39,750 bases of DNA. Source: Desulfobacteraceae bacterium UBA5852 (GTDB taxonomy: Bacteria; Desulfobacterota; Desulfobacteria; Desulfobacterales; UBA5852). Positions within the stretch are counted from its first letter, which is position 1. The number at the start of each line of letters is the position of its first letter. This document shows positions 7,646-30,961 of this stretch, in pieces. The translations under genes and the position numbers were made by a program. The notes under the pieces were generated by a model, which was not told the origin of the DNA, searched no databases, and was given only the letters and a program-made list of their open reading frames with translations. The DNA is taken from contig DJGG01000040.1 in NCBI GenBank assembly GCA_002432195.1, positions 19,392 through 59,141 on the forward strand, read 5' to 3'.

Positions 7646-8770
7646 ATGAGCAAGCTGTTCCAACCCAGTGCGATCAACGGGATGACCCTGGCCAACCGTT
7701 TCGTCCGCTCGGCCACCTGGGAGGGTCTGGCCGCTGCCGACGGCGGGGCCACACCGGAACTGGTGGCGGTCCTGGCGGCCCTGGCGGCCGGCGGCGTGGG
7801 CCTCATCGTCACCGGCCACGCCTACGTGCGGCCGGACGGCCAGGCCGGCCCCCGGCAGTTGGGGCTCCACGCGGACCGCCTGCTGCCCGGCCTGCAGGCC
7901 ATCACCGCCGCCGTGCACGGGGCCGGGGGCCGCATCGTGGCCCAATTGGCCCATGCCGGAACCTTCGCGGCGGAGAATCTTACGGGCACGCCTCCCCTGG
8001 CGGTGTCGGCCTTTGAAGGCCTGGCCGGTACGCCGCGGCGGGAGATCGCCCGGGAGGAGATCCCCGGGCTGGTGGCGGCCTACACCGCCGCCGCCCGTCG
8101 GGCCAAGGCCGCCGGCTTCGACGGGGTGCAGATCCACAGCGCCCACGGCTACCTCCTGAGCCAGTTCCTCTCGCCGGCCTTCAACCGGCGCACCGACGAA
8201 TACGGCGGACCGATCTACAACCGGTGCCGGATCCACCGCCAGATCCTCGCGGGCGTGCGGGAGGCCGTGGGGGAGGCCTACCCCGTGCTGATCAAGATGA
8301 ACGGCCGCGACCATGTTCCGGGAGGGCTCGAGCTGGAGGATGCCCTGGAGACGGGCAGCGTCCTGGCGGATGCGGGGCTGGACGCCATCGAGTTGAGCGG
8401 GGGGCTGCTCACCGGCGGCAAGCTCTCCCCCAGCCGCACGCGCATCTCCTCGGAGGAGAAGGAAGCCTACTTCCAGGAGGAGGCCCGGGCCTTCCGGGAA
8501 GAGATCGACATCCCCCTGATCCTGGTGGGGGGCATACGCTCTTTCGAGGTGGCCGAGCGGCTCGTCAAGAAGGGGCTGGCCGACTACATCGCCATGAGCC
8601 GCCCCTTCATCCGGGAGCCGGGCCTGATCGCCCGCTGGAAGGCCGGCGACCGCCGCCGGGCGGTCTGTCGTTCGGACAACCTTTGCTTCCGGCCGGGCCT
8701 GGCGGGGGATGGCGTCTATTGCGTCACCGCCGCCGCCGAGAAGGCCTCGAGCCCAGGTGCTCCGACCTGA
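7646..8770 (+). CDS. NADH:flavin oxidoreductase, Old Yellow Enzyme family
   Basis: ORF 7613..8770 trimmed to ATG 7646 (MSKLFQPSAINGMTLANRFVRSATWEG..). Motifs AQLAHAG, FDGVQIHSAHGYLLSQFLSP..N.RTDEYGG, and a C-terminal Cys-containing tail. Confidence 0.9.
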   Translation: MSKLFQPSAINGMTLANRFVRSATWEGLAAADGGATPELVAVLAALAAGGVGLIVTGHAYVRPDGQAGPRQLGLHADRLLPGLQAITAAVHGAGGRIVAQLAHAGTFAAENLTGTPPLAVSAFEGLAGTPRREIAREEIPGLVAAYTAAARRAKAAGFDGVQIHSAHGYLLSQFLSPAFNRRTDEYGGPIYNRCRIHRQILAGVREAVGEAYPVLIKMNGRDHVPGGLELEDALETGSVLADAGLDAIELSGGLLTGGKLSPSRTRISSEEKEAYFQEEARAFREEIDIPLILVGGIRSFEVAERLVKKGLADYIAMSRPFIREPGLIARWKAGDRRRAVCRSDNLCFRPGLAGDGVYCVTAAAEKASSPGAPT

Positions 8771-8796: not shown

Positions 8797-9393
8797 ATGG
8801 GAATCGACAGCTCCGACGGCCGCGAGGCCAGCCGCGAGGAATTGATATTGGCCCTCCAGGAGGCCCACCAGCAGGTGCTGGGGCTTCAGGCCAAGCTGGC
8901 GGAAATGGAGTGGATCGGGGAAGCCCTGCGACGGCGTACCGTGGACCTGGGGGAGCGCGTCAAGGAACTGGGCTGCCTCTACGCCATCTCCGACTGCCTG
9001 CGGGACCTGGAGGCCGAACTGCCGGAGATCCTCCAACGCATCGTCAACCTGATCCCCATCGGCTACCAGCACCCCGAGCGGACCTGGGCCAGGCTCAGCG
9101 TGGGCGGCAACATCTACTGCACGCCGGGTTTCCGGGAGACCGCCTTTCGCCAGGATCAGAGCATCCAGGCCGGCAAGCGCGGCCTGGGAACGGTCCAGGT
9201 CCATGTCCAGCCCGGCCGAGGGCCGAACGCCGCGCCCGCCTTCCTGGATCAGGAGGCCGATCTCCTGGCCGCTGTGGCGGTGTGGATCGGGGAAATCGTG
9301 GAGCAGCGCCAGTCCCGCACCCAGCGGCGGCTGGGGCTGGAGACGTCCTTTCTCAAAGCCTGGCGGCGCTTCGGCCGCAAGGGGCCGCGCTGA
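8797..9393 (+). CDS. Hypothetical protein: coiled coil plus a stand-alone sensor-like domain
   Basis: In frame with ORF 8224..9393, whose 5' part overlaps the OYE gene out of frame. ATG at 8797. The motif RVKELGCLYAISDCL resembles the N-terminal module of many sensor kinases, but no output domain is present. Confidence 0.55.
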   Translation: MGIDSSDGREASREELILALQEAHQQVLGLQAKLAEMEWIGEALRRRTVDLGERVKELGCLYAISDCLRDLEAELPEILQRIVNLIPIGYQHPERTWARLSVGGNIYCTPGFRETAFRQDQSIQAGKRGLGTVQVHVQPGRGPNAAPAFLDQEADLLAAVAVWIGEIVEQRQSRTQRRLGLETSFLKAWRRFGRKGPR

Positions 9394-16474: not shown

Positions 16475-16963
16475 ATGTCGACTCCCCAAGCCATCCAGCG
16501 TCTGCTCAAGTCTTCCCGCCGCGAAGACGTTCCCCGGGCTTACAGGGGAACCTGCTCCCTTGTCGACGAGGAAAGCCGGCAGGTCCTGGCCTCCTGCGAT
16601 CTGTCCGGTCAGGCAACGTTTGCCACGGTTTCCATCCTGACCCCGGACCGCCGCACCTGGACGATGAAGCCCAACCGCAAGATCATGCCCTCCCGCTGGA
16701 TCGTCTCCGACCCGGGGAAGTCGATTGCCGTGGAATTCGATCAGAACATCTCGCAGAAACTGATCAATCCCATCTATAAGTGCCTTCTGATCCTGTTTGA
16801 CGGTGAAAGCCGCGAAATCTACCGGGTCGTCGACCCTAAAACCAACCTGCCCGATCGAATTTTCGGGGTTGGTCCGGACGGCTGGCCGGAGCGGCGGCGC
16901 GAGCTGATCCGAGCGGAACTAAGCGAGGGCGTGCCAGAGAACGGACGAACCCAAATAGCATAA
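16475..16963 (+). CDS. Hypothetical protein
   Basis: ORF 16451..16963. ATG 16475 is preferred. No family recognised. Its last ~14 codons lie inside repeat copy A. Confidence 0.5.
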   Translation: MSTPQAIQRLLKSSRREDVPRAYRGTCSLVDEESRQVLASCDLSGQATFATVSILTPDRRTWTMKPNRKIMPSRWIVSDPGKSIAVEFDQNISQKLINPIYKCLLILFDGESREIYRVVDPKTNLPDRIFGVGPDGWPERRRELIRAELSEGVPENGRTQIA

Positions 16964-17072
16964 TACGGTCTTGATAATAAGATAAGTTTGTGTAAGCTGT
17001 TAATAGGCTGCGGGGTGGTTGCGGTAAATCCAACGACTGCAATTAACACGATGTCTGTCAAACTTTAATGTT
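16922..17072 (+). repeat. Copy A of a diverged ~150-bp direct repeat (partner at 26466-26617)
   Basis: Shared runs in the same order in both copies: AGCGAGGG, TGCCAGAGAACGG, CTTGATAATAAG, TAAGTTTGTGTA, GTGGTTGCGG, CAATTAACACGA, TTAATGTT. Contains a promoter-like TTGATA (16971-16976), 16-nt spacer, TAAGCT (16993-16998). Confidence 0.85.
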
Positions 17073-18903: not shown

Positions 18904-19128
18904 ATGAAACAATGCAAAATAGTAGTTGAAAAACATCCCGACATATACGTTGCCTATCCGCTTGGTTTGAAAGGGGTGGTCGTGGGCCAGGGGGACTCAT
19001 ATGAATCCGCCTTGGAGGATGTAAAATCAGCCATTAAATTTCACATTGAAACTTTCGGACCAAGTGAAATCGATTCTGATCCACCCGTTCTTGAGGCGTT
19101 CATAGCTGAAGCGCGGGTTGCCGTCTAA
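18904..19128 (+). CDS. hicB: HicB family antitoxin (UPF0150 fold)
   Basis: 74 aa. ..YVAYPLGLKGVVVGQGDSYESALEDVKSAIKFHIE.. Its stop overlaps the hicA start (TAATG). Confidence 0.8.
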   Translation: MKQCKIVVEKHPDIYVAYPLGLKGVVVGQGDSYESALEDVKSAIKFHIETFGPSEIDSDPPVLEAFIAEARVAV

Positions 19129-19364
19129 TGGCAAAATTTCCCGCTGACGCTCCGATACGTAAAGTCGTGACCACTTTGGAACAACTTGGATTTCGGTTGG
19201 TTCGGGAAGGGAACCACATTGCGATGTTGAGGGAAAATTCTGATGGCACACGCACACCACTAACAATTCCGAATCATCCGCTTCTAAAGAGGTCGACTTT
19301 ACGAACGATTCTTACCCAATCTAAAATTTCAAGAGAAGATTTTTTAAGAGTGTATTTCTCTTGA
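19128..19364 (+). CDS. hicA: HicA family mRNA-interferase toxin
   Basis: 78 aa. ..VVTTLEQLGFRLVREGNHIAMLRE..GTRTPLTIPNHP.LKRSTLRTIL.. is the canonical HicA/YcfA pattern. Confidence 0.85.
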   Translation: MAKFPADAPIRKVVTTLEQLGFRLVREGNHIAMLRENSDGTRTPLTIPNHPLLKRSTLRTILTQSKISREDFLRVYFS

Positions 19365-19460
19365 AAAGCTGAGAGAAGCTACAGATCGCCGCTCGGCGGT
19401 AAGGCCTCGCGTTAGCCAATTGCGCCTGGCCGGTGCTTGATTTGATTCCCTTCGGGCCTC

Positions 19461-19497: not shown

Positions 19498-21357
19498 ATG
19501 ACAAATCCACAAACCATCGCCGCCACCTTGCGGGCCATCCGCGCCCATCTCGATCTCACCCAGGAACAGCTTGCTGAACGCCTCGGGGTCTCCTTTGCCA
19601 CCGTCAACCGGTGGGAAGGCGGGGCCACCTTGCCGCAGAAGGCGGCCCGCGCCACCATCGCGGCGCTGGCCAAAGAGGCTGGCGTGGACCAGGACGCGCC
19701 GGCAACGGAGCCCGTAGAGGCGGCGGCCCAGGTCACGCGGCGGCGCCGCAAAGGCGGCCGCGCGGCTGCGGCGGCCAACCACGCCGGTTCCACCAAGCCC
19801 ATGGAGCAGATGCTCTGGGACGCGGCCTGCTCCATCCGGGGGGAAAAGGATGCGGCCAAGTTCAAGGACTTCCTGCTGCCGCTCCTTTTCCTGAAGCGCC
19901 TGTCGGACGTGTTCGACGACGAGCTCGACCGCCTGGCCGAGGAGTACGGGGACCGGGACACCGCGCTGGAGATCGCCGAAGGGGACCACAGTCTTCTGCG
20001 CTTCTACCTGCCGCCGGAGGCGCGCTGGGCCGTCATCAGCGGGCGCGAGCCGTATGCCTGGCCCGCGGACGACCAAGGCCGCGAAACCCGCCCCAAAGAC
20101 ATCGGCCAGCACCTCACCAAAGCCGTGCGGGCCGTGGTGCGGCAGAACCCGACGCTTGCGGGCGTCATCGACCTGGTGGACTTCGCCGCGGAGCGCAACG
20201 GCGAGCGCGACGTCAACCCGGCCAAGCTGCGCGAGGTGGTGGAAACCTTCTCCGACCCCCGCTACCGCCTGGGCCTGGCCGATGTGCAGCCGGATTTCCT
20301 GGGCCGGGCCTACGAGTACCTCCTGCGGAAATTCGCGGAAGGCTCGGGCCAGAGTGCGGGCGAGTTCTTCACTCCCACAGAGGTGGGCTTCCTGATGGCC
20401 CACATCCTGCGCCCCCGACCCGGCGAGGAGTGCCACGACTACGCCTGCGGCTCGGCCGGGCTGCTGGTGAAGCTCCAGCTCGTCGCCCGGGAGCTCGATC
20501 CCACCGCCAAGGTGCCCCTCAAGCTTTATGGTCAGGAGCTCACGGCCGAGGGCTACGCCGTGGCCCAGATGAACGCCATCATCCACGACATGAACGTGGA
20601 GATGGCCCGCGGCGACACCATGATCAACCCCAAGTTCAAGACCGCCGACAGCCGGATCCGCACCTACGACATCGTGGTGGCCAACCCCATGTGGAACCAG
20701 CCCTTCAACCCGGGCCTCTTCGCCGACGACCCCTTCGACCGTTTCCGCACCCAGGGCGGCACCACCACCGGCAAGGGAGACTGGGCCTGGCTCCAGCACA
20801 CCCTGGCCTGCCTGAACGACCGGGGCCGGGCGGCCGTGGTGCTGGACACCGGCGCCATGACCCGCGGCTCGGGCTCCAAGAACGAAGACAAGGAGCGCAA
20901 CATCCGCAAGTGGTTCGTGGACCGGGATCTCATCGACGGCGTGATCCTGCTCCCGGACAACCTTTTCTACAACACCACCGCGGCAGGCGTGATCGTGGTG
21001 CTCTCCCGGCGCAAGCCGGCCGCCCGCAAGGACCGCCTCGTGCTCCTGAACGCCTCCCGCAGGGTGCAGAAGGGGCGGCCCAAGAACTACATCCCGGAAG
21101 ACGCCCTCCGCCCCCTGGCCGCGGCCTTCCTCAAGGGCGAGCCGGTGGAGGGCGAGATCGCCGTCATCACCCGCCAGCAGGCCGCGGAGGCCGACTACAA
21201 CTTGAGCCCGAGCCGGTGGGTGGGGCAGGCCAGCTCGTCCGAGGTCGGTTCGGTGAGCGCCCTGGTCCGCGAACTGGCGGAGCTCGACAGCGAAGCCCGG
21301 CGCCTCTCGGCAGCGATTTCCAAACTGTTGGCGGGGGTGGCCGATGAGCCTGTTTGA
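19498..21357 (+). CDS. hsdM: Type I restriction-modification methyltransferase subunit HsdM with an N-terminal XRE-type HTH extension
   Basis: 619 aa. Residues 1-60 are an HTH ([25 protein letters not shown]), followed by an Ala/Arg-rich linker. The canonical HsdM_N begins at M102 (ATG 19801, [14 protein letters not shown]..). Motifs [13 protein letters not shown] (motif I) and NPMW (motif IV). Confidence 0.92.
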
Positions 21358-22639
21358 AGCCGATCTCGGTGAAGGCCGGCAGTGGTCCCGCGTCGGAGAC
21401 GGGTACTGTGTCACCCGGAAGCCGCGGGGCCTTGACCGGTCGGCTTTTCCGGAGATCCCCTTCGCTGCCATGGAGGCGATTCCCCAGGGGGGCGCCTACG
21501 CGCCGGTGTTCACCATGAAGCCGCCCGAGGCGATCGCCAGCGGAACTTACTTTGAACGGGGGGATATCCTCGTCGGCAAGATCACGCCCTCCTTCGAGAA
21601 TGGAAAGCAGGCCCTGGTAAACGATTTGCCGGCGCCCTTCGGCTACGCCACCACCGAGGTCATCCCCCTTCGCCCGCGTGACGACGGGCACGACCCGCGG
21701 CTGCTCTTCTTCTACCTGCTTCATCCGGATGTCCGGCATTACGTCGCCGAGCGCATGGAAGGCTCGACCGGCCGCAAACGAGTTCCCGAGAACGTGCTGC
21801 TCGATCTGCCGATTCCGTTGTTGGATCTTGAAGTCCAAGTGGCAATGGCCGACGCACTCGAGGCCATCCAACAGGCATCGTCGGCGGAAAGTCGATGCGA
21901 ACTTATGGCTCAGGATCTCAAACGCTCGGCCATGCGGGTGCTGTTCACGCGCGGGGTTAATGGCGAGGCGCAGAAGGAGACTGAGATTGGCCCGGTGCCG
22001 GAGAGTTGGGAGCAGATGCCAATATCTGCCCTTGGACAAATTATTACGGGAAACACTCCTCCGACAAAAGACATAGCGAACTATGTAAATGGCGAGATTC
22101 CCTTCATTGCGCCTGGTGACATCGAACACGGTAGGGCGATTACGTGGACAGAAAAGTTCGTCACTAAGAAGGGACTGGAAAAGTCGCGACCCATTAAAGG
22201 CGGTGCTACGTGCTTCGTTTGTATCGGATCGACTATCGGAAAAGTCGGATTTGCAACAGCGCAGGTCTGTGTGACCAACCAACAAATTAATTCAATAATC
22301 CCAAATGATAGGTTTGATCCGCTGTTTGTTTTTTTCCTCATGACATATTGGGCCGACCAGATTAGGAAAGAGGCCTCACCGAGTCCGGTTCCAATATTGA
22401 GCAAAGGTGTTTTCCAACAGATTGAGATTTTTTCCTCAGTGGATAAAGTGGAGCAAAAGAAGACTTCTACTGTTTTAGCTGCCATCGACCGCAAAATCGA
22501 CCTCCACCGCCACAAGCGCGCGGTGCTGGACGAGCTTTTCAAGGCGCTGCTCCACAAGCTGATGACCGGCGAGATCCACGTGGCCGATCTCGACCTCTCG
22601 GCGCTATCCCCGCAGGCTTTCTCTGAGGTCGCGGTGTGA
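21344..22639 (+). CDS. hsdS: Type I R-M specificity subunit HsdS (two target-recognition domains)
   Basis: 431 aa, overlapping the hsdM end by 14 nt. TRD1, a central conserved helix, TRD2, and a C-terminal conserved helix (..[19 protein letters not shown]). The TRD2 coding DNA (about 21990-22490) is visibly AT-rich compared with the rest of the gene. Confidence 0.9.
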
Positions 22640-22824
22640 AGGGGCTCTTTGTCGACGCGTCAGGGGAGAGCAGCCAGCCGGGTTGATTCCCACAGCAAAT
22701 TCTGCGGGATTTGCCGGGGTGAGATCAATGTGAAGGCCTTCGCGTCCGGCCAAAATGAAGGGGCCAGCCCCTGCTACGCAGTGACCAGCCCACGCGGCTA
22801 CAGTGGCATCAGGGCTGCTGGCCG

Positions 22825-22976
22825 TCAAGAGGCTGTGGATAACCGGCGCCTAAGTCCGAAATGCGGCGTTGCGGCCCTCGCGAAATTGCTCACAACCCCT
22901 TTAGGGTTGCTCCGCTTTTCGCATCGGGCCGCGCCTTGCCTTTCGTCCTGATGCTTGTTTATCCACAGCCTCTCAA
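22825..22976. repeat. MITE-like element: 14-15-bp perfect terminal inverted repeats, partly palindromic interior, flanked by TCAA on both sides
   Basis: GAGGCTGTGGATAA (22829-22842) and TTATCCACAGCCTC (22959-22972) are exact reverse complements. TCAA sits at 22825-22828 and 22973-22976. The interior halves are partially complementary around a central CAACCC-cttta-GGGTTG. It lies in the 470-bp hsdS-hsdR gap. Confidence 0.6.
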
Positions 22977-23020
22977 GGGATACGGGTCCGGCAATGCACG
23001 AAATGCCGCTTCCGGCTCTA

Positions 23021-23088
23021 TTCGTCTCGCGAAACCCCACTTCGTGAGACGAAAACCGGCTTTTTAAGAATCTGTGAGACGAAACCGG
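23021..23088 (+). promoter_or_regulatory. Three copies of a GAGACGAA-containing motif upstream of hsdR
   Basis: TTCGTCTCGCGAAA (23021-23034, inverted orientation), GTGAGACGAAAACCGG (23044-23059) and GTGAGACGAAACCGG (23074-23088). The last copy ends 22 nt before the hsdR ATG. Confidence 0.45.
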
Positions 23089-23110
23089 CAGACCGAGGGG
23101 TGACCCCGCC

Positions 23111-26056
23111 ATGCCCGAGCTCAAGATCAGCGAGGCCGGCACCGTTCAGTTTCCCATGGTGAGCCACGCCGCCGCCCTGGGCTGGGCGACCATCCCCCCC
23201 GAGGCCGCCCGGCGGAAGCGCGGCGGCGAGGCCGGCATGCTGTTCCGCGACGAGCTCGAAGGGGCGCTTGCCCGGTTCAACCCCTGGATGCCGGCCGACG
23301 CGGTGCACCAGGTGATGGAGAAGATCGAAGCCATCCCCCCCACCATCGAGGGGAACCGCGAGGTGCTGGCCTGGCTGCGGGGGGAGCGGCAGTGGTACGA
23401 CCAGGAGGAGAAGCGCCACCGCCGGGTGCAGATCGTGGACTTCGACGCACCGGGCCGGAACGTCTTCCATGTCACCTGGGAATGGGTGATCAAGCCGCCC
23501 GCCCGCAAGGGCAACCGGGCCGATGTGATGTTTGTGCTCAACGGGGTGCCGGTCTGCCTGGTGGAGCACAAGAACCCCAAGGACGGCGCCGCCCTCGACC
23601 GGGGCGTGACCCAGCTCCGGCGCTACGAAAAAGAGACCCCCGAGCTGATCGGCGCGCCCCAGCTCTTCAACGTCACCCACCTGCTGGATTACTGGTACGG
23701 CGTCACCTGGAACGCCAACCGGCGGTACATGGCGCGCTGGAAGCAGGCGCCCGAGGAAACTTACCAATTTGCGGTGCAGTCGTTTTTCGAGCCCACCGAC
23801 TTCCTGCGCACCCTCCGGGATTGGATCCTATTTTACGTAGAGGACGGCGAGACGCGGAAGTCGGTCCTGCGCCAGCACCAGCGCACCGCCATCGACAAGA
23901 TCGTGGCGCGGTGCGCCGAGGCGGGCCGGCGGCGGGGGCTGGTCTGGCACACCCAGGGCTCGGGCAAGACCTTCACGCTGTTGACGGCCGCCCGGCTCAT
24001 CCTGGAGGCCAAGGAGCGGTTCCGGAACGCCACCGTCATCCTGGTGGTGGACCGCACGGAGCTTGAAGGGCAGCTCAAGGGCTGGGTGGAGAAGCTCCTG
24101 GGGGAGATGCAGCAGCAGGATATCCCGGTGTGGCGGGCGGGCTCCCGGGCCGAGGTGCAGGCGCTGCTCTCAACCGACAAGCGCGGCCTGATCCTTTCGA
24201 TGATCCACAAGTTTGAGGGGATCGACAAGGACGCCAACACCCGGGACAACATCTACGTCTTCATCGACGAAGCCCACCGCTCGGTGGCCAGGGACCTCGG
24301 CACCTACATGATGGCGGCGGTGCCGCGGGCCACCATTGTCGGCTTCACCGGCACCCCCATCGCCAGGACGGCCCAGGGGGAGGGCACCTTCAAGATCTTC
24401 GGCGCCGACGACGAGCTGGGCTACCTGGACAAGTACTCCATCCGCGAGTCCATCGAGGACGAAACCACCCTCCCCATCCGGCACACCATGGCCCCCAGCG
24501 GGATGACCGTGCCGGCCGAGCGCCTGGACAAGGAATTCTTCGAGCTGGCCGCCGCCGAGGGCGTCACCGACATCGACGAGCTGAACAAGGTGCTCGACCG
24601 GGCCGTGGGGCTGCGCACCTTCCTCACCGCCGGCGACCGCATCCGGAAGGTGGCCGCCTTCGTGGCGGAGCACTTCCGGGAGAAGGTGCTGCCCCTGGGC
24701 TACAAGGCGTTTCTCGTGGGCGTGAACCGCGAAGCCTGCGCCAAGTACAAGCGCGCCCTGGACCAGCTCCTGCCCCCCGCGTGGACGGAGGCGGTCTACA
24801 CCGAGAACGCGGCGGACGTGGTGGAGCGTCCCCTGGTGGCCGAGGTGCAGCTTTCGCTCCAGCGGGAGGCGGACGTGCGCCTGATGTTCAGGAAGGCCGG
24901 CGAAAACCCGAAAATCCTCATCGTCACGGACAAGCTCCTCACGGGCTACGACGCTCCGCTGCTCTACTGCATGTACCTCGACAAGCCCATGCGGGACCAT
25001 GTGCTCCTCCAGGCCATCGCGCGGGTGAACCGGCCCTATGTGGATGCCAACGGCGTGCCCAAGCGCGTGGGCCTGGTGGTGGACTTCGTGGGCGTCCTGC
25101 GGGAGCTGAAAAAGGCACTCCAGTTCGACAGCGCGGATGTGAGCGGGGTGATCGAGGACCTGGACCTGCTGCTCGGGGATCTTCTCTCCAGGATCGCCGC
25201 GGCCAGGACGGATTACCTCGAAACCGGGGACGGAGCCGGCGCGGACGAAGGCCTGGAAAAGCTGGTCTACGGCCGTTTCCTGGACCCCGAGCCCCGCAAG
25301 GCGTTTTTTGCGGCCTACAAGGAGATCGAGGCGCTCTGGGAGATCCTGTCCCCCTCCCCGGAGCTGCGGGACCATATTCCCACCTTCAAGCGCCTCGCCC
25401 AGCTCTACGCCACGGTGCGCAACGCCTACGCGGCCCGCGTCGGGTACGTGGCCGATCTGGCCTACAAGACCGGGGAACTGGTGAAAGACAATGTGACCCA
25501 GTATGGGCTTGGCCGGGTGATCAAAACCGTGACCTTCGACGTGCCGACCCTGGAGGGGCTGCGCCGGGAATCCGGCTCGGATGAAGCCAAGGTCTTCAAC
25601 CTCGTCCGCGGCCTGCAGAAGGAGATCGACGAGGATCCCAACGCCGCACCGGTGCTGCAGACCCTGAAGGAGCGCGCCGAACGCATCCTGGAGGACCTGG
25701 AGAACCGCAAAACCACCGGTCTCGCGGCCATGGACGAGCTGGCGGCCCTGGCCCGGGAGAAGGAAGAAGCGACAAAGGCGGCCAAGGAAAGCGGGCTGTC
25801 CAGCCGTGCTTTCGGGGTCTACTGGATGTTCCGGGATCACCAGGCCCTGCGTGGGGCGGGCATTGCCGCCATGGATCTGGCCAGGGAATCCGAAGCGCTG
25901 CTCACCCGCTTCCCCAACGCCCGGGTCAATCCCGACGAGCAGCGCCGGCTCCGCGCGGCCCTCTACCGTCCCCTGCTGGGGTTGGACCAAGAGGATCGGG
26001 GCCGGGTGGTGGACATCGTGCTGGCGATCCTGCTGAACGGCGGCGGCGATGCGTGA
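23111..26056 (+). CDS. hsdR: Type I restriction endonuclease subunit HsdR (nuclease + SF2 helicase/translocase)
   Basis: 981 aa. N-terminal nuclease region (..[17 protein letters not shown]), helicase motif I HTQGSGKT, motif [10 protein letters not shown], and later motifs [11 protein letters not shown] and Q.I.RVNR. Confidence 0.93.
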
Positions 26057-26348
26057 CCGCGACGAACGGCGCGCCAGGCTTCGGGAGCGCGTGAATCACT
26101 GGGCCAGCAGGTTGAGGACGGAACCTAAGGTCGTCCGCATCCAGCGCATGACGAGGAAGTGGGGATCCTGCTCCTTGACCGGCATCATCACCCTGGCCGA
26201 GGACCTAACGGAGCAGGAGCCCGAATTCCAAGACTTTGTCATTGCCCACGAGCTGCTGCACTTGCGGGTGCGAAGCCACGGAAAGGTGTTCAAGGCGTTG
26301 ATGAGCGTGCACCTTCCAGGGTGGCGGCAATATGGGTTGAACAAATGA
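26049..26348 (+). CDS. Short M48/YgjP-like (DUF45) zinc metallopeptidase
   Basis: 99 aa, overlapping the hsdR stop by 8 nt. Motifs RKWGSCS and HELLHL (HEXXH). It is shorter than typical YgjP proteins. Confidence 0.75.
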
Positions 26349-26465
26349 GGACAAGAAACTTCAATGAAAATGGTCGAACTGAAAGAGCTCTTTCGGCGGG
26401 GCTGTCTCACCGGAAATGAAACACAATTAACAAGACGTCTCGATAATTGTGGTGTCAGTGGGAAA

Positions 26466-26617
26466 AGCGAGGGTATGCCAGAGAACGGGTAAGCCGAAAG
26501 AGAAAAGTAAGGGCTTGATAATAAGGTAAGTTTGTGTAGGCTGGTTTTTAGGCAGTGGAGTGGTTGCGGGAAATCCGACGGTCACAATTAACACGACGTC
26601 TGTTAAAGATTAATGTT
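26466..26617 (+). repeat. Copy B of the diverged ~150-bp direct repeat (partner at 16922-17072)
   Basis: Same ordered identical blocks as copy A. Promoter-like TTGATA (26515-26520), 16-nt spacer, TAGGCT (26537-26542). It begins with a relic of the copy-A ORF tail (..SEGMPENG* versus ..SEGVPENGRTQIA*). Confidence 0.85.
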
Positions 26618-26644
26618 ATGTGAAATCGCATAGAAAGGTTTCTG

Positions 26645-27247
26645 ATGTCAATTAAAGAAGTATTGGATACGTCTTTTAAGCTGGTTTATGACGAGCATGT
26701 CGGGAGATTATTATCAATTCCTGAAAAATACCTATCCCAGGTCAGGCCAAATAAACAGATCCCATACTCTGAAATGTTCAAGTCCTACAACTCAGATATT
26801 GCGCAAGAGTTGAACGAATATGGGGATAAACTACGTACTGAAACGAGGCGTGCATTAGAAGCAAAAGGAACGGTATCTACCAAGGATAAAGAAAAAATCA
26901 AGAAAAGCATTGAAAACTGTCTCGAAGCGGAATTGTATATAAATCGCTTTGACATATTTATCGAATCCATTGGTAGAACTCTTTCACGCTACGGAATGAG
27001 CTTTGAGCCAGAAAAGTATCGTGTAGATATACCGAAATCACTTGCCGTGACACATGCAAAAAACACTTGCAGAAAGATTGAATCAACAATTCTAAACGAC
27101 ATTGATGTTCTCTTGCTAAATGAGAACGCCAATAAATCGGGGGCGGGAGTTTATAGTTTTCTTAATGACCTTTACAACAAACATCAGCTTGCATTCTGGG
27201 GGCTTGGGCTTTTAATTTCAGTGATTTTGGGTGTCCTGCTTGTTTAG
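26645..27247 (+). CDS. Hypothetical helical protein with a single C-terminal transmembrane anchor
   Basis: 200 aa, AT-rich, with GAAAGG RBS. The soluble Lys/Glu-rich N-terminal ~175 aa are followed by LAFWGLGLLISVILGVLLV at the extreme C-terminus. No family recognised. Confidence 0.7.
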   Translation: MSIKEVLDTSFKLVYDEHVGRLLSIPEKYLSQVRPNKQIPYSEMFKSYNSDIAQELNEYGDKLRTETRRALEAKGTVSTKDKEKIKKSIENCLEAELYINRFDIFIESIGRTLSRYGMSFEPEKYRVDIPKSLAVTHAKNTCRKIESTILNDIDVLLLNENANKSGAGVYSFLNDLYNKHQLAFWGLGLLISVILGVLLV

Positions 27248-27253
27248 CAAATC

Positions 27254-27343
27254 ACATAACAAACCGCTCAAATACGTTCTGGCCACAAAAGACGTGGCCT
27301 CCACCAGACTCGCTAACGCTCGCCGTTTAGCGGGGCGTTAGCC
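27254..27343 (+). repeat. attC-like imperfect palindrome 1
   Basis: Ends are ACATAAC ... GTTAGCC. The inner box CCGCT(C)AAA (27264-27272) pairs with TTTAGCGG (27326-27333), leaving one bulged C. A 3x3 mismatch lies between the outer and inner boxes. The interior contains the hairpin GGCCAC-aaaagac-GTGGCC. Confidence 0.35.
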
Positions 27344-27392
27344 GAATATAGACCGACGAGATACGGGTAACGATAGAAAGGAGCTATGAATC

Positions 27393-28181
27393 ATGGCAAC
27401 ATTCAACGTCAATGAATTCAACCGCAAGATGCGCGAAGCTCAACGCAAAGCACAACAACATATGAAAAATGAGATTGACCGTGTGAATCGTGCCAATAAG
27501 AGGGCAGATGATGAATATAATCGGAAGGCTGAAGCTCACAACAAAAAGGTAATCGCCGACTTCAATCGCAAAGTGGAAACCCACAACAAAAAGGTGATCG
27601 ATGACTACAATTCACGCATCAGGGATTACAATAGAAAGGCAGACGCACATAATAAGAGAGTTATCGAAGATATAAATCGTCAGTTGCGATCTGCTACAAG
27701 TGGAGTTCGATACACAGAACCAGAGCGCTCACTTGCAGACCGCGTGCATCAAGCTGTTGCCACGCTGGATGCGCGGGAATATGATACATTTCTCAGCTAT
27801 GCTCGCATAGATGGTGCCGAGGTAGCAACAGCACTCAGGGATGCCCTCGAAGAACTTGGTGTATCAGTGTGGTTCGACGAAGTCGCTATTGTTCCAGGCC
27901 ATAGCCAATCGCTGCAAATGGATGCCGGATTACGCAAGGCTCGCTCAGGTATCGCACTATTAACACCTGCATATCTTGCTGGCCGGTTTTGGACAGAGCG
28001 GGAACTCGGGGCTCTTCTAAGCAAGGAAACGTTGATTCCAGTATTACACTGTGTCACATTCGATGACGTGAGGCAGTATAGTGGAATTTTACCTGACTTG
28101 GCGGGTTTTACTACAGCGCAAGACGGAATTTTCGATATTGCACAGAAAATTACGGCGGCAGTTCTGCTTGACCAAGAATGA
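27393..28181 (+). CDS. TIR-domain protein with a repeat-built coiled-coil N-terminal region
   Basis: 262 aa with AAGGAG RBS. Residues ~130-262 read YDTFLSYARIDGAEVATALRDALEELGVSVWFDE..SGIALLTPAYLAGRFWTERELGALL, which are TIR strand A, strand B and the W..E Glu region. Residues ~27-97 are tandem ~15-aa repeats (NRKAEAHNKKVIADF / NRKVETHNKKVIDDY / NRKADAHNKRVIEDI). Confidence 0.85.
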   Translation: MATFNVNEFNRKMREAQRKAQQHMKNEIDRVNRANKRADDEYNRKAEAHNKKVIADFNRKVETHNKKVIDDYNSRIRDYNRKADAHNKRVIEDINRQLRSATSGVRYTEPERSLADRVHQAVATLDAREYDTFLSYARIDGAEVATALRDALEELGVSVWFDEVAIVPGHSQSLQMDAGLRKARSGIALLTPAYLAGRFWTERELGALLSKETLIPVLHCVTFDDVRQYSGILPDLAGFTTAQDGIFDIAQKITAAVLLDQE

Positions 28182-28214
28182 AATCTATACGCTTTCATGA
28201 AAAGAACAACGGAG

Positions 28215-28278
28215 GGCTAACCAGCGGCTACAAGAGGACGCGCAAACACCCGCGCGCCCTTGAGCTGCGGCGTTATGC
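28215..28278 (+). repeat. attC-like imperfect palindrome 2 (64 nt)
   Basis: Ends are GGCTAAC ... GTTATGC. Paired segments CAGC/GCTG, CAAG/CTTG, GG/CC and CGCGC/GCGCG surround an 8-nt loop, with several bulges. Confidence 0.35.
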
Positions 28279-28305
28279 TAACCAGACAACAGGTAAAGGT
28301 GAAAA

Positions 28306-29433
28306 ATGGTGGACAATAGCTTTTTCGAAGAACAAAAAGAGCAGTCTCTTATCAAATCAACCATTGTAGCCAAATATTTTGATGTCTGGGCCAATGTCAT
28401 CATAAGTACACAAAAACGTTATCCTCGACACTCTCAGAAAATTGCCTACATTGATCTTTTTGCAGGGCCTGGTCGATTTAAAGATGGGAGCACTTCAACT
28501 CCATTAAAAATATTAACCAATGCTATAGAAAAGCCTGATCTTCGCGAGCGATTAGTCGCCATATTCAATGATAGAGATGAAAAGAATTCAACCGATTTAC
28601 AACGAACAATAAAAACGATTCCTGGCATTGAAACTCTTAAATTCAAGCCAGCGATATATAATCAAGAAGTGGGAGAAGAAATTGTCAAAATGTTCGAAGA
28701 AATGAGCTTAGTGCCAACCCTATTCTTCGTTGATCCATGGGGATATAAGGGACTTTCTTTGAGATTGGTGAATTCAGTGTTAAAAGATTGGGGTTGTGAT
28801 GCAATCTTTTTCTTTAATTACAATCGTATTAATATGGGGTTAAATAATTTATTCGTTCAAGAGCACATGCAAGCACTTTTTGGCGTTGAAAAAGCGATAG
28901 AATTGAGAGAAGGGCTATCAAGAAAAAAGCCATATAAACGGGAATTAATTATAGTAGAAGAGCTTTGCCAAGCACTAAAATCGTATGGCTCTAGATATGT
29001 TTTGCCTTTCAGATTTAAAAATAATAGAGGCAAAAGGACCAGCCATCATTTGATATTTGTTAGCAAATCCTTTCGTGGCTACGAAATAATGAAGGACATT
29101 ATGGCTCGTGAAAGTACAAGCGATACGCAAGGTGTTCCTTCATTCGAATATAATCCAGCCGATTTTTTGCCAAGGCAATCTTTACTATTTCAACTTTATC
29201 GTCCGCTTCATGACTTGAAAAAAGATCTATTGAATTCATTTAAATGTAAAAGACTCACCATGCGTGATATATATGAATCGCACAATGTTGACACAGCGTA
29301 TGTTAAAAAAAATTATAAAGAGGTCTTACGTGAGCTATACGATGATGGTTCTATTGGTGCAGTATCTCCAACAGGAAAGCCACCACGCAAAGGCACCTTT
29401 AGTGATGAAATTATTGTAACTTTCCCAAGTTAG
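28306..29433 (+). CDS. tcmP: Three-Cys-motif partner protein TcmP-like (TIGR04474-type)
   Basis: 375 aa, AT-rich. The N-terminus ..IKSTIVAKYFDVWANVI.. and YIDLFAGPGRF are recalled as TcmP-like. It sits 8 nt upstream of a Gp37/Gp68 three-Cys gene, the defining pairing. MTase-like motif I DLFAGPG (aa 50-56) and motif-IV-like VDPWGY (aa 142-147). Confidence 0.75.
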   Translation: MVDNSFFEEQKEQSLIKSTIVAKYFDVWANVIISTQKRYPRHSQKIAYIDLFAGPGRFKDGSTSTPLKILTNAIEKPDLRERLVAIFNDRDEKNSTDLQRTIKTIPGIETLKFKPAIYNQEVGEEIVKMFEEMSLVPTLFFVDPWGYKGLSLRLVNSVLKDWGCDAIFFFNYNRINMGLNNLFVQEHMQALFGVEKAIELREGLSRKKPYKRELIIVEELCQALKSYGSRYVLPFRFKNNRGKRTSHHLIFVSKSFRGYEIMKDIMARESTSDTQGVPSFEYNPADFLPRQSLLFQLYRPLHDLKKDLLNSFKCKRLTMRDIYESHNVDTAYVKKNYKEVLRELYDDGSIGAVSPTGKPPRKGTFSDEIIVTFPS

Positions 29434-29441
29434 GAGGGACA

Positions 29442-30218
29442 ATGGCCTTAAGTAAGATCGAATGGACTGAATCTACATGGAATCCTGTTACTGGGTGTAC
29501 TAAAATCAGTTCAGGTTGCGAAAATTGCTATGCTGAACGTATGGCAAAAAGATTAAAATTAATGGGTCAACCCAATTATGTAAACGGCTTCCAAGTGACC
29601 CTTCATGAACATGTTCTTGAATATCCTTTAGCCTGGAAAAAACCACAAACGATATTTGTTAATTCCATGAGCGACCTGTTCCACGCAAAAGTTCCAGATT
29701 TCTTTATTTTCCAAATATTTAATATCATGAAGCAAGCAAACTGGCATCGTTTTCAAGTTTTAACAAAAAGATCAGATCGCTTAAAAAAGCTCTCATCAAA
29801 GTTAGATTGGCCCCAAAATGTGTGGATAGGCGTCAGTGTTGAAAATGAGGTGGTCAAATACAGAATTGATGATTTAAGGTGGATACCAGCCCAAATTAAG
29901 TTTTTATCTATTGAACCATTACTTGGTCCTCTTTCGACCATTGAATTAAACGGCATCGATTGGGTAATTGTCGGAGGAGAATCAGGACCAGCAGCCAGGG
30001 AAATGAAACAAGAATGGGTAATACAAATTAAAGAACAATGCATAGAACAAAACGTACCATTCTTTTTCAAACAATGGGGTGGGGCTAACAAAAAGAAAAC
30101 TGGAAGGATATTGCAAGGCCGGACATGGGATAATTTGCCTTTTGGTATTAGTATAAAGCATAACGACAACTTCCAGCAGGCCGCCAAGACAATGCCGCAT
30201 GTGGAATGTTCATTGTAG
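29442..30218 (+). CDS. Phage Gp37/Gp68 family protein (DUF5131, three-Cys motif)
   Basis: 258 aa with AGGAGGG RBS. IEWTESTWNPVTGCTKISSGCENCYAERMA (C19-x6-C26-x2-C29), FVNSMSDLFH, VLTKR, WIGVSVEN, SIEPLLGP, WVIVGGESGP and FFFKQWGG are the family blocks. Confidence 0.88.
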   Translation: MALSKIEWTESTWNPVTGCTKISSGCENCYAERMAKRLKLMGQPNYVNGFQVTLHEHVLEYPLAWKKPQTIFVNSMSDLFHAKVPDFFIFQIFNIMKQANWHRFQVLTKRSDRLKKLSSKLDWPQNVWIGVSVENEVVKYRIDDLRWIPAQIKFLSIEPLLGPLSTIELNGIDWVIVGGESGPAAREMKQEWVIQIKEQCIEQNVPFFFKQWGGANKKKTGRILQGRTWDNLPFGISIKHNDNFQQAAKTMPHVECSL

Positions 30219-30285
30219 CCCGAAATCTTTACTTCTGGCGCAGTTTTATATTTTTGAAGGCGGCTGCTGAAGCTGGGCGTTGGAT
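30158..30285 (+). repeat. attC-like imperfect palindrome 3 (128 nt), overlapping the 3' end of the Gp37/Gp68 gene
   Basis: Ends are GCATAAC (30158-30164) ... GTTGGAT (30279-30285, fits GTTRRRY). CTTC(C)AGCAG(G)CCGCC (30170-30185) pairs with GGCGGCTGCTGAAG (30259-30272), leaving two bulged bases. Confidence 0.4.
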
Positions 30286-30292
30286 ATTTTTT

Positions 30293-30817
30293 ATGCCATT
30301 GAGCAAGATGAAAACGATTTTTGAAAGCTATACCATCCGTTCAGCCAGACCGGAAGACGTCGATCGTTGCTACGAAATTGAATCCATTTCATACGAAGGA
30401 GACGAGGCCGCAACGAGGAAAAAGATCGCGAAGCGCATCGCGATTTATCCTGATGGATTCATGGTCATTGAAGTTGGAGGGACTGTTGTCGGCTTCGTCA
30501 ACTCCGGCTCCACCGATCAAGTTAAAATGTCTGATGAGAGCTTCAAGGAACTGGTCGGCCACGATCCCGACGGCAAACATAATGTAATCATGTCCGTGGT
30601 GGTTCATCCGGAATTTCATGGCAAGGGACTTTCGTCGATATTGATGCACAATTACATTCTGCGCATGCGGAAGCTGAGAAAGGAATCCATCCACCTGATG
30701 TGCAAAGAGCGGCATATCGCCCTGTACGAGAAGTTCGGCTTCCGATATATAAAGCGATCGGCCTCCACGCATGGAGGAATGTCCTGGCATGAAATGATAT
30801 TGAGCTTGCATAACTAG
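30293..30817 (+). CDS. GNAT family N-acetyltransferase
   Basis: ORF 30206..30817. ATG 30293 or 30308 is preferred. Motif A VVVHPEFHGKGLSSILM and ..ALYEKFGFRY. AT-rich. Confidence 0.8.
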   Translation: MPLSKMKTIFESYTIRSARPEDVDRCYEIESISYEGDEAATRKKIAKRIAIYPDGFMVIEVGGTVVGFVNSGSTDQVKMSDESFKELVGHDPDGKHNVIMSVVVHPEFHGKGLSSILMHNYILRMRKLRKESIHLMCKERHIALYEKFGFRYIKRSASTHGGMSWHEMILSLHN

Positions 30818-30961
30818 TGTCCATCCAGAAATGGTGGATTTTGGTTCCTGGCAAGGCCGCAGCCGACTGGCGCCCGCAGGCGTAGTGCGGCTACGCCGAG
30901 GACCGACAGGAGGCGAGAACGCCGCCAGGGGCCAAAAGATACCATTTATGGATGAACACTA
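30815..30961. repeat. MITE-like element with ~30-bp imperfect terminal inverted repeats, at the AT-rich/GC-rich boundary
   Basis: GTGTCCATCCAGAAATGGTGGATTTTGGTTCC (30817-30848) matches the reverse complement of GGCCAAAAGATACCATTTATGGATGAACAC (30930-30959). TA flanks both ends. The GC-rich interior has a central hairpin GGCGTAG-tgcgg-CTACGCC. Confidence 0.55.

What the first reader, a model, noticed from the sequence alone, without database searches (positions are those of the whole stretch)
26645..30817. AT-rich five-gene block beside the type I R-M operon: candidate uncharacterised defence or nucleic-acid-modification island
Directly after hsdR/ygjP and repeat copy B, composition drops sharply. 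Five + strand genes follow: a 200-aa tail-anchored membrane protein, a coiled-coil TIR protein, a TcmP-like protein, a three-Cys Gp37/Gp68 (DUF5131) protein and a GNAT acetyltransferase.

TIR domains are established NAD-consuming or signal-generating immune modules. R-M and HicBA neighbours fit the defence-island rule. As far as I know, the TcmP/Gp37-Gp68 pair has no assigned function.

The combination matches no defence system architecture I can name (Thoeris, CBASS, Pycsar, SPARTA, retron-TIR, AVAST, BREX, DISARM, Dnd/Ssp, Dpd). The block may be one system or two to three independent cassettes, since hairpin elements sit in each gap.
Basis: partly seen in the sequence, partly recalled or inferred. 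Interest (0 to 1): 0.85.

Follow-up and report, generated by a model that had tools for sequence, protein, structure and literature searches.

The report
Integron-type array of defence-gene cassettes
The AT-rich five-gene block is not one new immune system but a row of four independently mobile, integron-style gene cassettes parked beside a restriction-modification operon. Two of the cassettes are already-catalogued but untested phage-defence candidates.

Summary
Five + strand ORFs lie at the stated coordinates, at 36-48% GC in a 62-73% GC background, and GC-rich hairpins sit in the first two gaps.

The interpretation needs changing. The genes do not co-occur elsewhere:
- 0 of 80 TIR loci carry any of the other four genes.
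- 0 of 90 TcmP loci carry p1 or the GNAT.
- TcmP and DUF5131 are paired in 85 of 86 loci that have room downstream.

PADLOC already lists the TIR protein as PDC-S66 and the TcmP/DUF5131 pair as PDC-M30. Both are untested "guilt-by-embedding" candidates.

Module boundaries fall at integron core sites (G|TTRRRY). attC2 is a canonical 64-nt attC hairpin. Homologues of p1 and of the TIR gene are cassettes in bona fide integrons with IntI (Marinomonas, Thiotrichaceae). The window has no IntI.

Best reading: a CALIN-like array of four cassettes, [p1], [TIR], [TcmP+DUF5131] and [GNAT], next to a type I R-M. The TIR protein is an AbTIR-like coiled-coil NADase with an intact WxxxE motif. TcmP is a class I methyltransferase fold plus wHTH. 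DUF5131 is radical-SAM-like (invariant CX6CX2C and GGE). The GNAT shows no defence link.

This is a new member of a known kind. The mechanism of the TcmP/DUF5131 pair remains open.

The parts
19498..26348 (+). Context: type I R-M operon hsdM (19498-21357, with an N-terminal HTH), hsdS (21344-22639), hsdR (23111-26056), and a ygjP-like metallopeptidase remnant (26049-26348). GC is host-like.
   Evidence: Pfam hits; GC.
26465..26617 (+). Repeat copy B (153 nt, about 80% identical to 16921-17072). Its last bases form the core-site box GTTATGT (26615-21) where the p1 cassette begins. It is not a hairpin and its nature is unresolved.
   Evidence: alignment; no significant fold; p1 homology starts at 26615.
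26615..27343 (+). Cassette 1: core site G|TTATGT (26615-21), p1 ORF 26645-27247 (tail-anchored helical protein of unknown function), and attC1 from R'' ACATAAC (27254-60) to R' GTTAGCC (27337-43).
   Evidence: DNA homology to the Marinomonas integron cassette runs 26615-27264, and to the Pseudoalteromonas copy 26633-27339. All p1 homologues have GTTATGT about 30 nt upstream, with unrelated sequence 5' of the G. The Marinomonas array has IntI.
27338..28278 (+). Cassette 2: TIR ORF 27393-28181 (N-terminal coiled-coil repeats plus an AbTIR-like TIR domain; WxxxE = W200..E204) and attC2 from R'' GGCTAAC (28215-21) to R' GTTATGC (28272-78).
   Evidence: PADLOC PDC-S66 E=3.6e-36. AbTIR 8g83 E=4e-22. 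attC2 folds as a canonical imperfect hairpin pairing R'' with R'. TIR homologues are cassettes in a complete integron (L032) and have attC sites in L017, L023, L026 and L191.
28273..30285 (+). Cassette 3 (two genes): TcmP 28306-29433 (class I SAM-methyltransferase fold plus C-terminal wHTH), DUF5131 29442-30218 (radical-SAM-like, CX6CX2C), and a conserved 3' region ending at the core-site box GTTGGAT (30279-85). There is no canonical R'' and no stable hairpin.
   Evidence: TIGR04474, PF22560, PF07505. PDC-M30A/B. Paired in 85 of 90 loci. Homology to L097 runs 28272-30276 and to L190 28290-30279. Fold matches RlmJ. Cys and GGE motifs invariant. attC3 does not fold.
30293..30817 (+). GNAT N-acetyltransferase (probable start 30293). 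It is either the last cassette or the first flanking gene. Intermediate GC (0.48), and no attC after it.
   Evidence: Pfam PF00583. Absent from all 170 TIR/TcmP loci. 60%-identical homologues sit in non-cassette, non-defence contexts.
30815..30960 (.). 146-nt near-perfect hairpin at the right edge of the AT-rich block. It has the wrong box polarity (GTT...AAC) for an attC. Its base carries the only + strand terminator-like site in the block.
   Evidence: dG -81, z -8.3; terminator-like 30819-30839; no Rfam family, no other copy.

Best explanation
The block is a short array of integron-type gene cassettes without an adjacent integron integrase (a CALIN-like array). It lies directly downstream of, and on the same strand as, a type I R-M operon.

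It holds four independently mobile units:
1. An orphan tail-anchored helical protein (p1).
2. A single-gene coiled-coil TIR protein of the AbTIR/PDC-S66 type. Inferred role: it oligomerises and hydrolyses or cyclises NAD+ on infection, giving abortive infection or a signal.
3. A two-gene unit, TcmP plus DUF5131 (PDC-M30). TcmP is a DNA-binding (wHTH) class I SAM-methyltransferase-fold protein and DUF5131 is a radical-SAM-like Fe-S enzyme. Inferred role: together they chemically modify a nucleic acid, most likely DNA.
4. A generic GNAT acetyltransferase.

Shown here: the independence of the units, the TcmP-DUF5131 pairing, the family and fold assignments, the catalytic motifs, the cassette boundaries, and cassette status of p1 and TIR homologues in real integrons.

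Inferred, not shown: any anti-phage activity, the NADase activity, the substrate and chemistry of TcmP/DUF5131, and expression by read-through from the R-M operon (no + strand terminator-like site before 30819).
For: Independence of the genes:
- 0/80 genome loci with a TIR homologue carry p1, TcmP, DUF5131 or the GNAT within 8 kb, and the TIR gene has no conserved neighbour (largest cluster 7/80).
- 0/90 TcmP loci carry p1 or the GNAT. One of 90 has a distant TIR.
- p1 homologues have no TIR or TcmP neighbours.

Pairing: DUF5131 is adjacent to TcmP in 85/90 loci, and 4 of the 5 exceptions are contig ends. The pair also occurs in a Gordonia phage.

Cassette nature:
- The p1 homologue is a cassette in a Marinomonas integron with IntI (TIGR02249, 371 bits against a cutoff of 265) and an attC after every ORF.
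- A TIR homologue is a cassette in a Thiotrichaceae integron (IntI 442 bits).
- More TIR homologues have a conserved 5' end starting at G|TT(A/G)GCC and canonical attC sites.
- DNA homology breakpoints in the window fall at core sites: 26615, 27339, 28272, 30276-30279.
- attC2 folds like genuine short attC sites.
- The box pattern TAAC-N45-75-GCGTTR occurs exactly twice in the 39.7-kb window, both times in the gaps on the gene strand.
- L190 has an IntI C-terminal fragment and a canonical attC beside its TcmP/DUF5131.
- No IntI in the window.

Functions:
- PADLOC PDC-S66, PDC-M30A/B.
- PDCs are untested candidates embedded in R-M/BREX/DISARM.
- AbTIR match and invariant W200xxxE204.
- TcmP has a class I MTase fold (best match RlmJ) with invariant DLFAGPG and DPWGY motifs.
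- DUF5131 has C19/C26/C29 and GGESG invariant in 76/76 homologues and is listed as a radical-SAM subgroup.
- Integron cassettes are known to carry defence genes, including TIR and GNAT cassettes.
Against: - No IntegronFinder run was possible.
- My compact attC covariance model, built from 12 genuine non-window sites, scored attC2 at only 9.2 bits (E about 6) and missed attC1. Its positive control recovered only 3 of 12 true sites, so the test is uninformative rather than negative.
- With local composition, two box-pattern hits have P about 0.07.
- attC1's minimum-energy fold uses an inner GCTAACGC/GCGTTAGC hairpin rather than the R''/R' pairing inferred by homology.
- The site after DUF5131 has only the R' box and no hairpin.
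- The GNAT has no attC after it.
- Many TcmP/DUF5131 and actinobacterial TIR homologues are not in cassettes. They are embedded in type I/III R-M loci, in phages, or elsewhere.
- No experimental evidence exists for defence by PDC-S66 or PDC-M30.
Confidence: 0.7

Rival explanations
1. One integrated five-gene defence or modification system: membrane protein, TIR, TcmP, DUF5131 and GNAT act together.
For: Same strand, tight spacing, shared low GC. No + strand terminator-like site until after the GNAT.
Against: The genes never co-occur elsewhere: 0/80 TIR loci and 0/90 TcmP loci contain the others, and p1 loci lack them. Each unit has its own homology boundaries. PADLOC models treat TIR as single-gene and TcmP/DUF5131 as a two-gene unit.
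Confidence: 0.03
2. An ordinary defence island built by generic horizontal transfer. The intergenic hairpins are terminators or REP-like elements and the GTT boxes are coincidental.
For: The formal attC model test was not significant. The local shuffle gave P about 0.07. There is no integrase in the window. The site after DUF5131 and the hairpin after the GNAT are not attC-like.
Against: Homology breakpoints for three different modules coincide with G|TT boxes in comparisons with unrelated contigs. p1 and TIR homologues are cassettes inside complete integrons with IntI. attC2 has the box, bulge and stem architecture of genuine short attC sites. The gap hairpins lack T-runs and were not called as terminators.
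Confidence: 0.17
3. p1 and the TIR protein form a two-gene membrane-plus-TIR system, comparable in spirit to TM+TIR systems.
For: They are adjacent. A remote p1-domain relative (P0311) is fused to a CAP12/Pycsar-type TIR domain, a 'Rosetta-stone' hint.
Against: None of 80 TIR loci has a p1 homologue, and none of the p1 loci has a TIR gene. An attC-type site separates the two genes. The fused TIR belongs to a different TIR family (PF10137 versus PF13676).
Confidence: 0.05
4. TcmP/DUF5131 is a functional accessory of the neighbouring type I R-M (an extra modification or a backup), not an autonomous unit.
For: R-M-like genes lie within about 7 kb of the pair in 18/41 long loci, against 8/70 for TIR. 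In some loci the pair is operonic with Res-like helicases, N6/N4 methyltransferases or hsdR. PDC-M30 was defined by embedding in R-M/BREX/DISARM.
Against: Here the pair is separated from hsdR by two other cassettes and has its own boundaries. The partner R-M type varies (type I, type III-like) or is absent (integron arrays, phage lysogeny module). The enrichment estimate is biased, because some probes came from TcmP loci; with the window's HsdMSR alone it is 5/41 against 7/70.
Confidence: 0.12

Closest known systems
Integron gene-cassette arrays without integrase (CALIN) and defence cassettes in integrons (BRiCs; Kieffer et al. 2025, Darracq et al. 2025, Getz et al. 2025)
   Same: Same-strand array of unrelated short units, each bounded by G|TTRRRY core sites with attC-type imperfect hairpins. 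Homologous cassettes occur in complete integrons. The contents (TIR, GNAT, unknowns) match what integron defence cassettes are reported to carry.
   Different: No IntI within the 39.7-kb window. Only one of three or four sites (attC2) is fully canonical. The array abuts an R-M operon. The host is a high-GC organism rather than a Vibrio-type host with a large sedentary integron. No recombination or defence activity was tested.
PADLOC PDC-S66, the AbTIR/TcpB-type bacterial coiled-coil TIR NADases, and Thoeris ThsB
   Same: N-terminal coiled coil plus C-terminal TIR_2 domain. Full-length match to the PDC-S66 model. Best solved relative is the NAD+ hydrolase AbTIR. The WxxxE catalytic motif is invariant.
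   Different: No ThsA-type effector nearby, so it is not Thoeris. PDC-S66 is untested. The N-terminal region has 15-residue repeat blocks whose number varies between homologues. The trigger and product are unknown.
PADLOC PDC-M30/M41 = TcmP (TIGR04474) plus three-Cys-motif protein DUF5131 (PF07505, phage Gp37/Gp68)
   Same: Both genes match the models and are adjacent in the canonical order. The pairing is near-universal.
   Different: Here the pair is packaged as an integron-type cassette rather than embedded in an R-M, BREX or DISARM operon. Function is unknown in all contexts.
Nucleic-acid-modifying SAM enzymes: RlmJ (N6-adenine rRNA methyltransferase) for TcmP; radical-SAM enzymes acting on nucleic acids (spore photoproduct lyase, RlmN/Cfr) for DUF5131
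   Same: TcmP has a class I MTase fold with motif I (DLFAGPG) and a DPPY-like motif IV (DPWGY), and RlmJ is the top fold hit. DUF5131 has a three-Cys cluster motif and a GGE motif, and sits in RadicalSAM.org megacluster 5, as does spore photoproduct lyase.
   Different: TM-scores are low (0.35-0.48) and there is no sequence-level PDB hit. The Cys spacing is CX6CX2C, not CX3CX2C. The resemblance to RlmN/Cfr is from general knowledge and was not tested here. The substrate is unknown.

Membership tests
Integron gene cassette / CALIN | attC sites: R''(RYYYAAC)-L''...L'-R'(GTTRRRY) imperfect inverted repeats folding into a hairpin with bulged bases | tested here: inconclusive
   attC2 (28215-28278) is fully canonical. 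attC1 (27254-27343) has the boxes and is homologous to genuine sites, but its MFE fold is non-canonical. The site after DUF5131 has only R'. There is none after the GNAT. The home-made covariance model was not significant, and its positive control was weak.
Integron gene cassette / CALIN | Units are mobilised individually: the same cassette occurs in other arrays, with homology ending at the G|TT crossover point | tested here: met
   p1: 26615-27264 and 26633-27339. TcmP/DUF5131: 28272-30276 and 28290-30279. TIR 5' ends are conserved from G|TT(A/G)GCC in four or more genomes.
Integron gene cassette / CALIN | Homologous cassettes reside in complete integrons with an integron integrase | tested here: met
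   Marinomonas L008 IntI TIGR02249 371 bits (p1 cassette). Thiotrichaceae L032 IntI 442 bits (TIR cassette). For TcmP/DUF5131 there is only an IntI fragment plus an attC nearby (L190).
Integron gene cassette / CALIN | CALIN: two or more attC sites with no intI nearby | tested here: met
   tblastn of IntI against the whole window: best E=2.5.
Thoeris | ThsB TIR sensor together with a ThsA (SIR2/Macro-SLOG) effector | tested here: not met
   ThsB models hit more weakly than PDC-S66. No ThsA-like gene in the block, and no conserved partner in 80 loci.
PADLOC PDC-S66 (single-gene TIR candidate) | Full-length match to the PDC-S66 HMM | tested here: met
   E=3.6e-36, residues 10-257 of 262 against model positions 35-280 of 282.
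PADLOC PDC-M30 (TcmP + DUF5131 candidate) | Adjacent genes matching the M30A and M30B HMMs | tested here: met
   M30A E=3.6e-25. M30B E=8.8e-118 (also M41B, 2.9e-120). 8-nt gap.
NAD+-consuming TIR enzymes | Conserved catalytic glutamate (WxxxE) in a TIR fold | tested here: met
   W200 and E204 are invariant in 24 homologues and align with WTNYE of AbTIR. Enzymatic activity was not testable here.
Radical SAM superfamily (DUF5131) | Three-Cys motif ligating a [4Fe-4S] cluster plus a SAM-binding GGE motif | tested here: met
   C19-X6-C26-X2-C29 and G178-G-E-S-G invariant in 76/76. The spacing differs from the canonical CX3CX2C. RadicalSAM.org lists it as a subgroup. Cluster binding and SAM cleavage were not testable.
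Class I SAM-dependent methyltransferases (TcmP) | Rossmann-like MTase fold with a glycine-rich motif I | tested here: met
   Foldseek: 53 PDB hits at E<=1e-3, all listed top hits methyltransferases, best RlmJ at E=1.7e-6. Invariant YIDLFAGPGR. Model pLDDT is only 73.
Type I R-M-embedded system (in the PADLOC 'embedding' sense) | Genes located between the hsd genes | tested here: not met
   The block lies downstream of hsdR / ygjP-like, not between hsd genes.

The most novel reading that the evidence does not exclude
TcmP/DUF5131 is a self-contained, horizontally mobile radical-SAM DNA-modification machine. The wHTH-methyltransferase-fold subunit would target DNA and present a base, and the Fe-S subunit would perform radical chemistry. 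That would install a DNA modification not yet described. The modification would protect its carrier (integron host, prophage, R-M locus) from restriction, or would mark or cripple invading DNA. This would explain why the pair recurs in integron cassettes, inside R-M operons, and next to phage immunity repressors.
Probability: 0.25. Interest if true: 0.75.

Novelty: new member of a known kind. Interest (0 to 1): 0.4.

Why it matters
The result turns an apparently new five-gene immune system into something simpler and checkable: a small integron-type cassette array, without an integrase, in a high-GC environmental bacterium, holding two catalogued but untested defence candidates.

That adds an example to the recent finding that integrons are stores of anti-phage genes. 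It also shows that PDC-S66 and PDC-M30 circulate as integron cassettes, which gives natural minimal units (about 0.9 kb and 2.0 kb) to clone and test.

The open question of real interest is the chemistry of the very widespread TcmP/DUF5131 pair, which has more than 6,000 protein clusters and occurs in bacteria, archaeal plasmids and phages.

Tried and rejected
- Exact-protein look-ups returned only the same organism's contigs (99.9-100% identical), so they gave no independent context.
- Sequence searches of the PDB with TcmP and DUF5131 found nothing significant.
- The fold search for p1 gave no match (best E=0.03, designed helical bundles).
- Rfam found nothing in the block at either threshold. 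The only hit in the window is a cobalamin riboswitch far upstream. There are no tRNA or tmRNA genes, so no att-type anchor.
- attC covariance model: MAFFT could not align full-length sites. A compact arms-only model was built, but it recovered only 3 of 12 genuine sites and gave non-significant scores in the window. I treat this as inconclusive.
- The count of the box pattern is not significant on its own.
- I considered the 146-nt hairpin after the GNAT as the last attC and rejected it, because its box polarity is inverted.
- I considered the 153-nt repeats as attC or attI. They do not fold and have no other copies, so they are left unexplained.
- TRF did not detect the protein-level 15-residue repeats of the TIR N-terminus at the DNA level.
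- Literature searches for TcmP were swamped by unrelated acronyms. Specific searches found no functional study of DUF5131 or TcmP.

Full report
**1. Observation**

The five + strand ORFs are at the stated coordinates.

| Gene | Coordinates | Evidence |
|---|---|---|
| p1 | 26645-27247 | No Pfam, NCBIfam, PADLOC or PHROG match |
| TIR | 27393-28181 | TIR_2 PF13676, E=2.8e-15 |
| TcmP | 28306-29433 | TIGR04474, E=8.5e-59, plus GMT-wHTH |
| DUF5131 | 29442-30218 | PF07505, E=1e-101 |
| GNAT | 30206-30817 (probably 30293-30817) | PF00583 |

Per-gene GC is 0.36-0.48, against 0.67-0.69 for hsdM/hsdR and 0.62 for the next host gene. The block follows hsdR, a ygjP-like remnant, and copy B of a 153-nt direct repeat. 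GC-rich hairpins occupy the p1-TIR and TIR-TcmP gaps, and a very strong 146-nt hairpin follows the GNAT. The DUF5131-GNAT gap has no stable fold.

**2. One system or several?**

I fetched 80 genome loci encoding TIR homologues (50-83% identity, many phyla) and 90 metagenome or viral loci encoding TcmP homologues.
- None of the TIR loci contains p1, TcmP, DUF5131 or the GNAT within 8 kb.
- The TIR gene has no conserved neighbour at all. The largest flanking cluster is in 7 of 80 loci.
- None of the TcmP loci contains p1 or the GNAT, and one has a distant TIR.
- DUF5131 is next to TcmP in 85 of 90 loci, and four of the five exceptions are contig ends.
- The pair is also present, convergently arranged, beside the immunity repressor of Gordonia phage ThankyouJordi.
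- p1 homologues are rare (16 clusters by word search, 143 representative clusters by full HMMER). They sit among mobile or defence cargo without TIR or TcmP neighbours.
- The GNAT's nearest plasmid homologues (60% identity) sit beside transporters or respiratory genes.

So there are four units: [p1], [TIR], [TcmP+DUF5131] and [GNAT].

**3. What is already known**

PADLOC-DB v2 matches the TIR protein full-length to PDC-S66 (E=3.6e-36). It matches TcmP/DUF5131 to PDC-M30A/B (E=3.6e-25 and 8.8e-118; DUF5131 also matches M41B). According to Payne et al. (bioRxiv 10.1101/2024.01.29.577857), PDCs are 145 untested candidates, proposed because they are found embedded in BREX, DISARM or type I R-M loci. 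Specific full-text searches found no functional study of DUF5131 or TcmP, only annotation tables and a listing of DUF5131 as a radical-SAM subgroup.

**4. The units are integron-type cassettes**

*Evidence from real integrons.* In Marinomonas polaris the p1 homologue lies in a same-strand array downstream of a divergent integron integrase (TIGR02249, 371 bits against a cutoff of 265). An attC site follows every ORF. In a Thiotrichaceae MAG a TIR homologue is one cassette of a complete integron (IntI 442 bits).

*Evidence from boundaries.*
- All p1 copies carry GTTATGT about 30 nt upstream of the ATG, with unrelated sequence 5' of the G. The window and a Pseudoalteromonas copy share a homologous site ending at GCGTT.
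- DNA homology breakpoints in the window coincide with core-site boxes:
  - p1: 26615-27264 and 26633-27339.
  - TcmP/DUF5131: 28272-30276 (against L097) and 28290-30279 (against L190).
- TIR cassettes from four other genomes share a 5' end that starts at G|TT(A/G)GCC and are followed by canonical attC sites.
- Several TcmP homologues have GTTAGGC or GTTATGC 35-45 nt upstream.
- L190 has an IntI C-terminal fragment and a canonical attC beside its TcmP/DUF5131.

*Evidence from structure.* In the window, attC2 (28215-28278, GGCTAAC...GTTATGC) folds like genuine short attC sites. Twelve genuine sites gave the expected invariant R-box and covarying L-box helices.

*Weaknesses.*
- My arms-only covariance model was insensitive and gave no significant hit in the window.
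- The box pattern occurs exactly twice in the window, both times in the gaps, but P is only about 0.07 with local composition.
- attC1's best fold is non-canonical.
- The site after DUF5131 has only the R' box.
- The GNAT lacks an attC.

The window has no IntI. I therefore read the block as a partly decayed, CALIN-like cassette array. This fits recent reports that integron cassettes carry anti-phage systems, including TIR and GNAT cassettes.

**5. How the parts probably work**

*TIR protein.* The closest solved relative is the NAD+ hydrolase AbTIR (E=4e-22). The WxxxE motif (W200...E204) is invariant. The N-terminal region is a coiled coil made of 15-residue blocks, and their number varies between homologues. 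Inference: oligomerisation-dependent NAD+ hydrolysis or cyclisation as a single-gene abortive-infection module. It is not Thoeris, because it has no ThsA and no conserved partner.

*TcmP.* The AlphaFold model (pLDDT 73) matches class I methyltransferases, best RlmJ at E=1.7e-6 with TM 0.35-0.48. Motif I (DLFAGPG), a DPPY-like DPWGY and a C-terminal wHTH are all invariant or nearly so.

*DUF5131.* CX6CX2C and GGESG are invariant in 76/76 homologues. RadicalSAM.org places DUF5131 in megacluster 5, as it does spore photoproduct lyase. Inference: TcmP and DUF5131 form a two-subunit SAM/radical-SAM enzyme acting on DNA.

*Contexts of the pair.* It recurs inside type I and type III-like R-M operons: 18/41 long loci against 8/70 for TIR, a biased estimate. 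It also occurs in integron arrays and in a phage lysogeny module. That argues for an autonomous, conflict-related function, but does not say which one.

*p1.* A helical bundle with a C-terminal membrane anchor and no fold match. Remote relatives fuse the same domain to a CAP12/Pycsar-type TIR domain, to DUF4145, or to an Ig-like domain. That is a weak hint of a sensor-plus-swappable-effector design.

*GNAT.* Generic, with no evidence for a defence role.

**6. Verdict**

The finding is real but more ordinary than proposed. It is a new example of a known kind of element, integron-type defence cassettes beside an R-M system. Two of the units are already catalogued as untested candidates. The interesting residue is the unknown chemistry of TcmP/DUF5131.

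Noticed in passing
window 16921-17072 and 26465-26617: A 153-nt direct repeat, about 80% identical, brackets the RidA-PhzF-HicA-hsdMSR-ygjP segment. Both copies end in ...TTAATGTT, a GTT core-site-like box after which a low-GC gene begins. A 19-mer, CACAATTAACAnGACGTCT, occurs three times (17038, 26422, 26583). The repeat does not fold as a hairpin. It could be an attI-like or other recombination or regulatory site.
   Followed up: partly
window 30815-30960: A 146-nt near-perfect hairpin (dG -81 kcal/mol, z -8.3) lies between the GNAT stop and the EamA gene. It is unique in the window, matches no Rfam family, and has the wrong box polarity for an attC.
   Followed up: partly
window 18904-19364 and 19409-19417: A HicA toxin (PF07927, E=6e-12) at 19128-19364 is preceded by a 74-aa HicB-sized ORF that has no Pfam hit. 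A GCGTTAGCC core-site-like box lies between hicA and hsdM, so the low-GC genes left of the R-M may also be cassette-like.
   Followed up: partly
window 19498-21357: HsdM carries an N-terminal Xre-type HTH domain (PF01381/PF13560, residues 7-66). That is an unusual fusion for a type I methyltransferase subunit.
   Followed up: no
window 1439-1569 (- strand): A cobalamin riboswitch (RF00174, 67.6 bits).
   Followed up: no
window 27393-28181 and alignment A1: The TIR protein is very strongly conserved: 70-94% amino-acid identity, with more than 100 invariant positions, across Proteobacteria, Bipolaricaulota, Planctomycetota, Rhodothermales and others. Homologues differ mainly by gain or loss of 15-residue N-terminal repeat blocks.
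   Followed up: partly
P0311, P0362, P0263 (remote p1 relatives): The p1 N-terminal helical domain is fused in other proteins to a CAP12/Pycsar-type TIR domain (PF10137), to DUF4145, or to an NBR1-type Ig-like domain. This suggests a modular sensor/effector design.
   Followed up: partly
L190 11110-11280 and 11924-12015: About 175 nt downstream of a 91%-identical TcmP/DUF5131 pair there is a fragment encoding the last 57 residues of an integron-integrase-like recombinase (E=6e-12). A canonical attC follows the next ORF.
   Followed up: partly
L032 about 6660-6860, 7750-7950 and 8840-9000: In the Thiotrichaceae integron, an ORF-less stretch of about 190 nt recurs after three successive cassettes. 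It looks like a repeated non-coding cassette.
   Followed up: no
L187 (Gordonia phage ThankyouJordi) 3236-5814: The TcmP-like gene ('methyltransferase', gene 42) directly follows the immunity repressor (gene 43), and the DUF5131 gene (gene 41) is convergent to it. Both lie inside the lysogeny module next to the integrase, which suggests expression from the prophage.
   Followed up: partly
window 22828-22842 / 22959-22973: A perfect 15-nt inverted repeat (AGAGGCTGTGGATAA / TTATCCACAGCCTCT), 116 nt apart, lies in the 470-nt gap between hsdS and hsdR.
   Followed up: no
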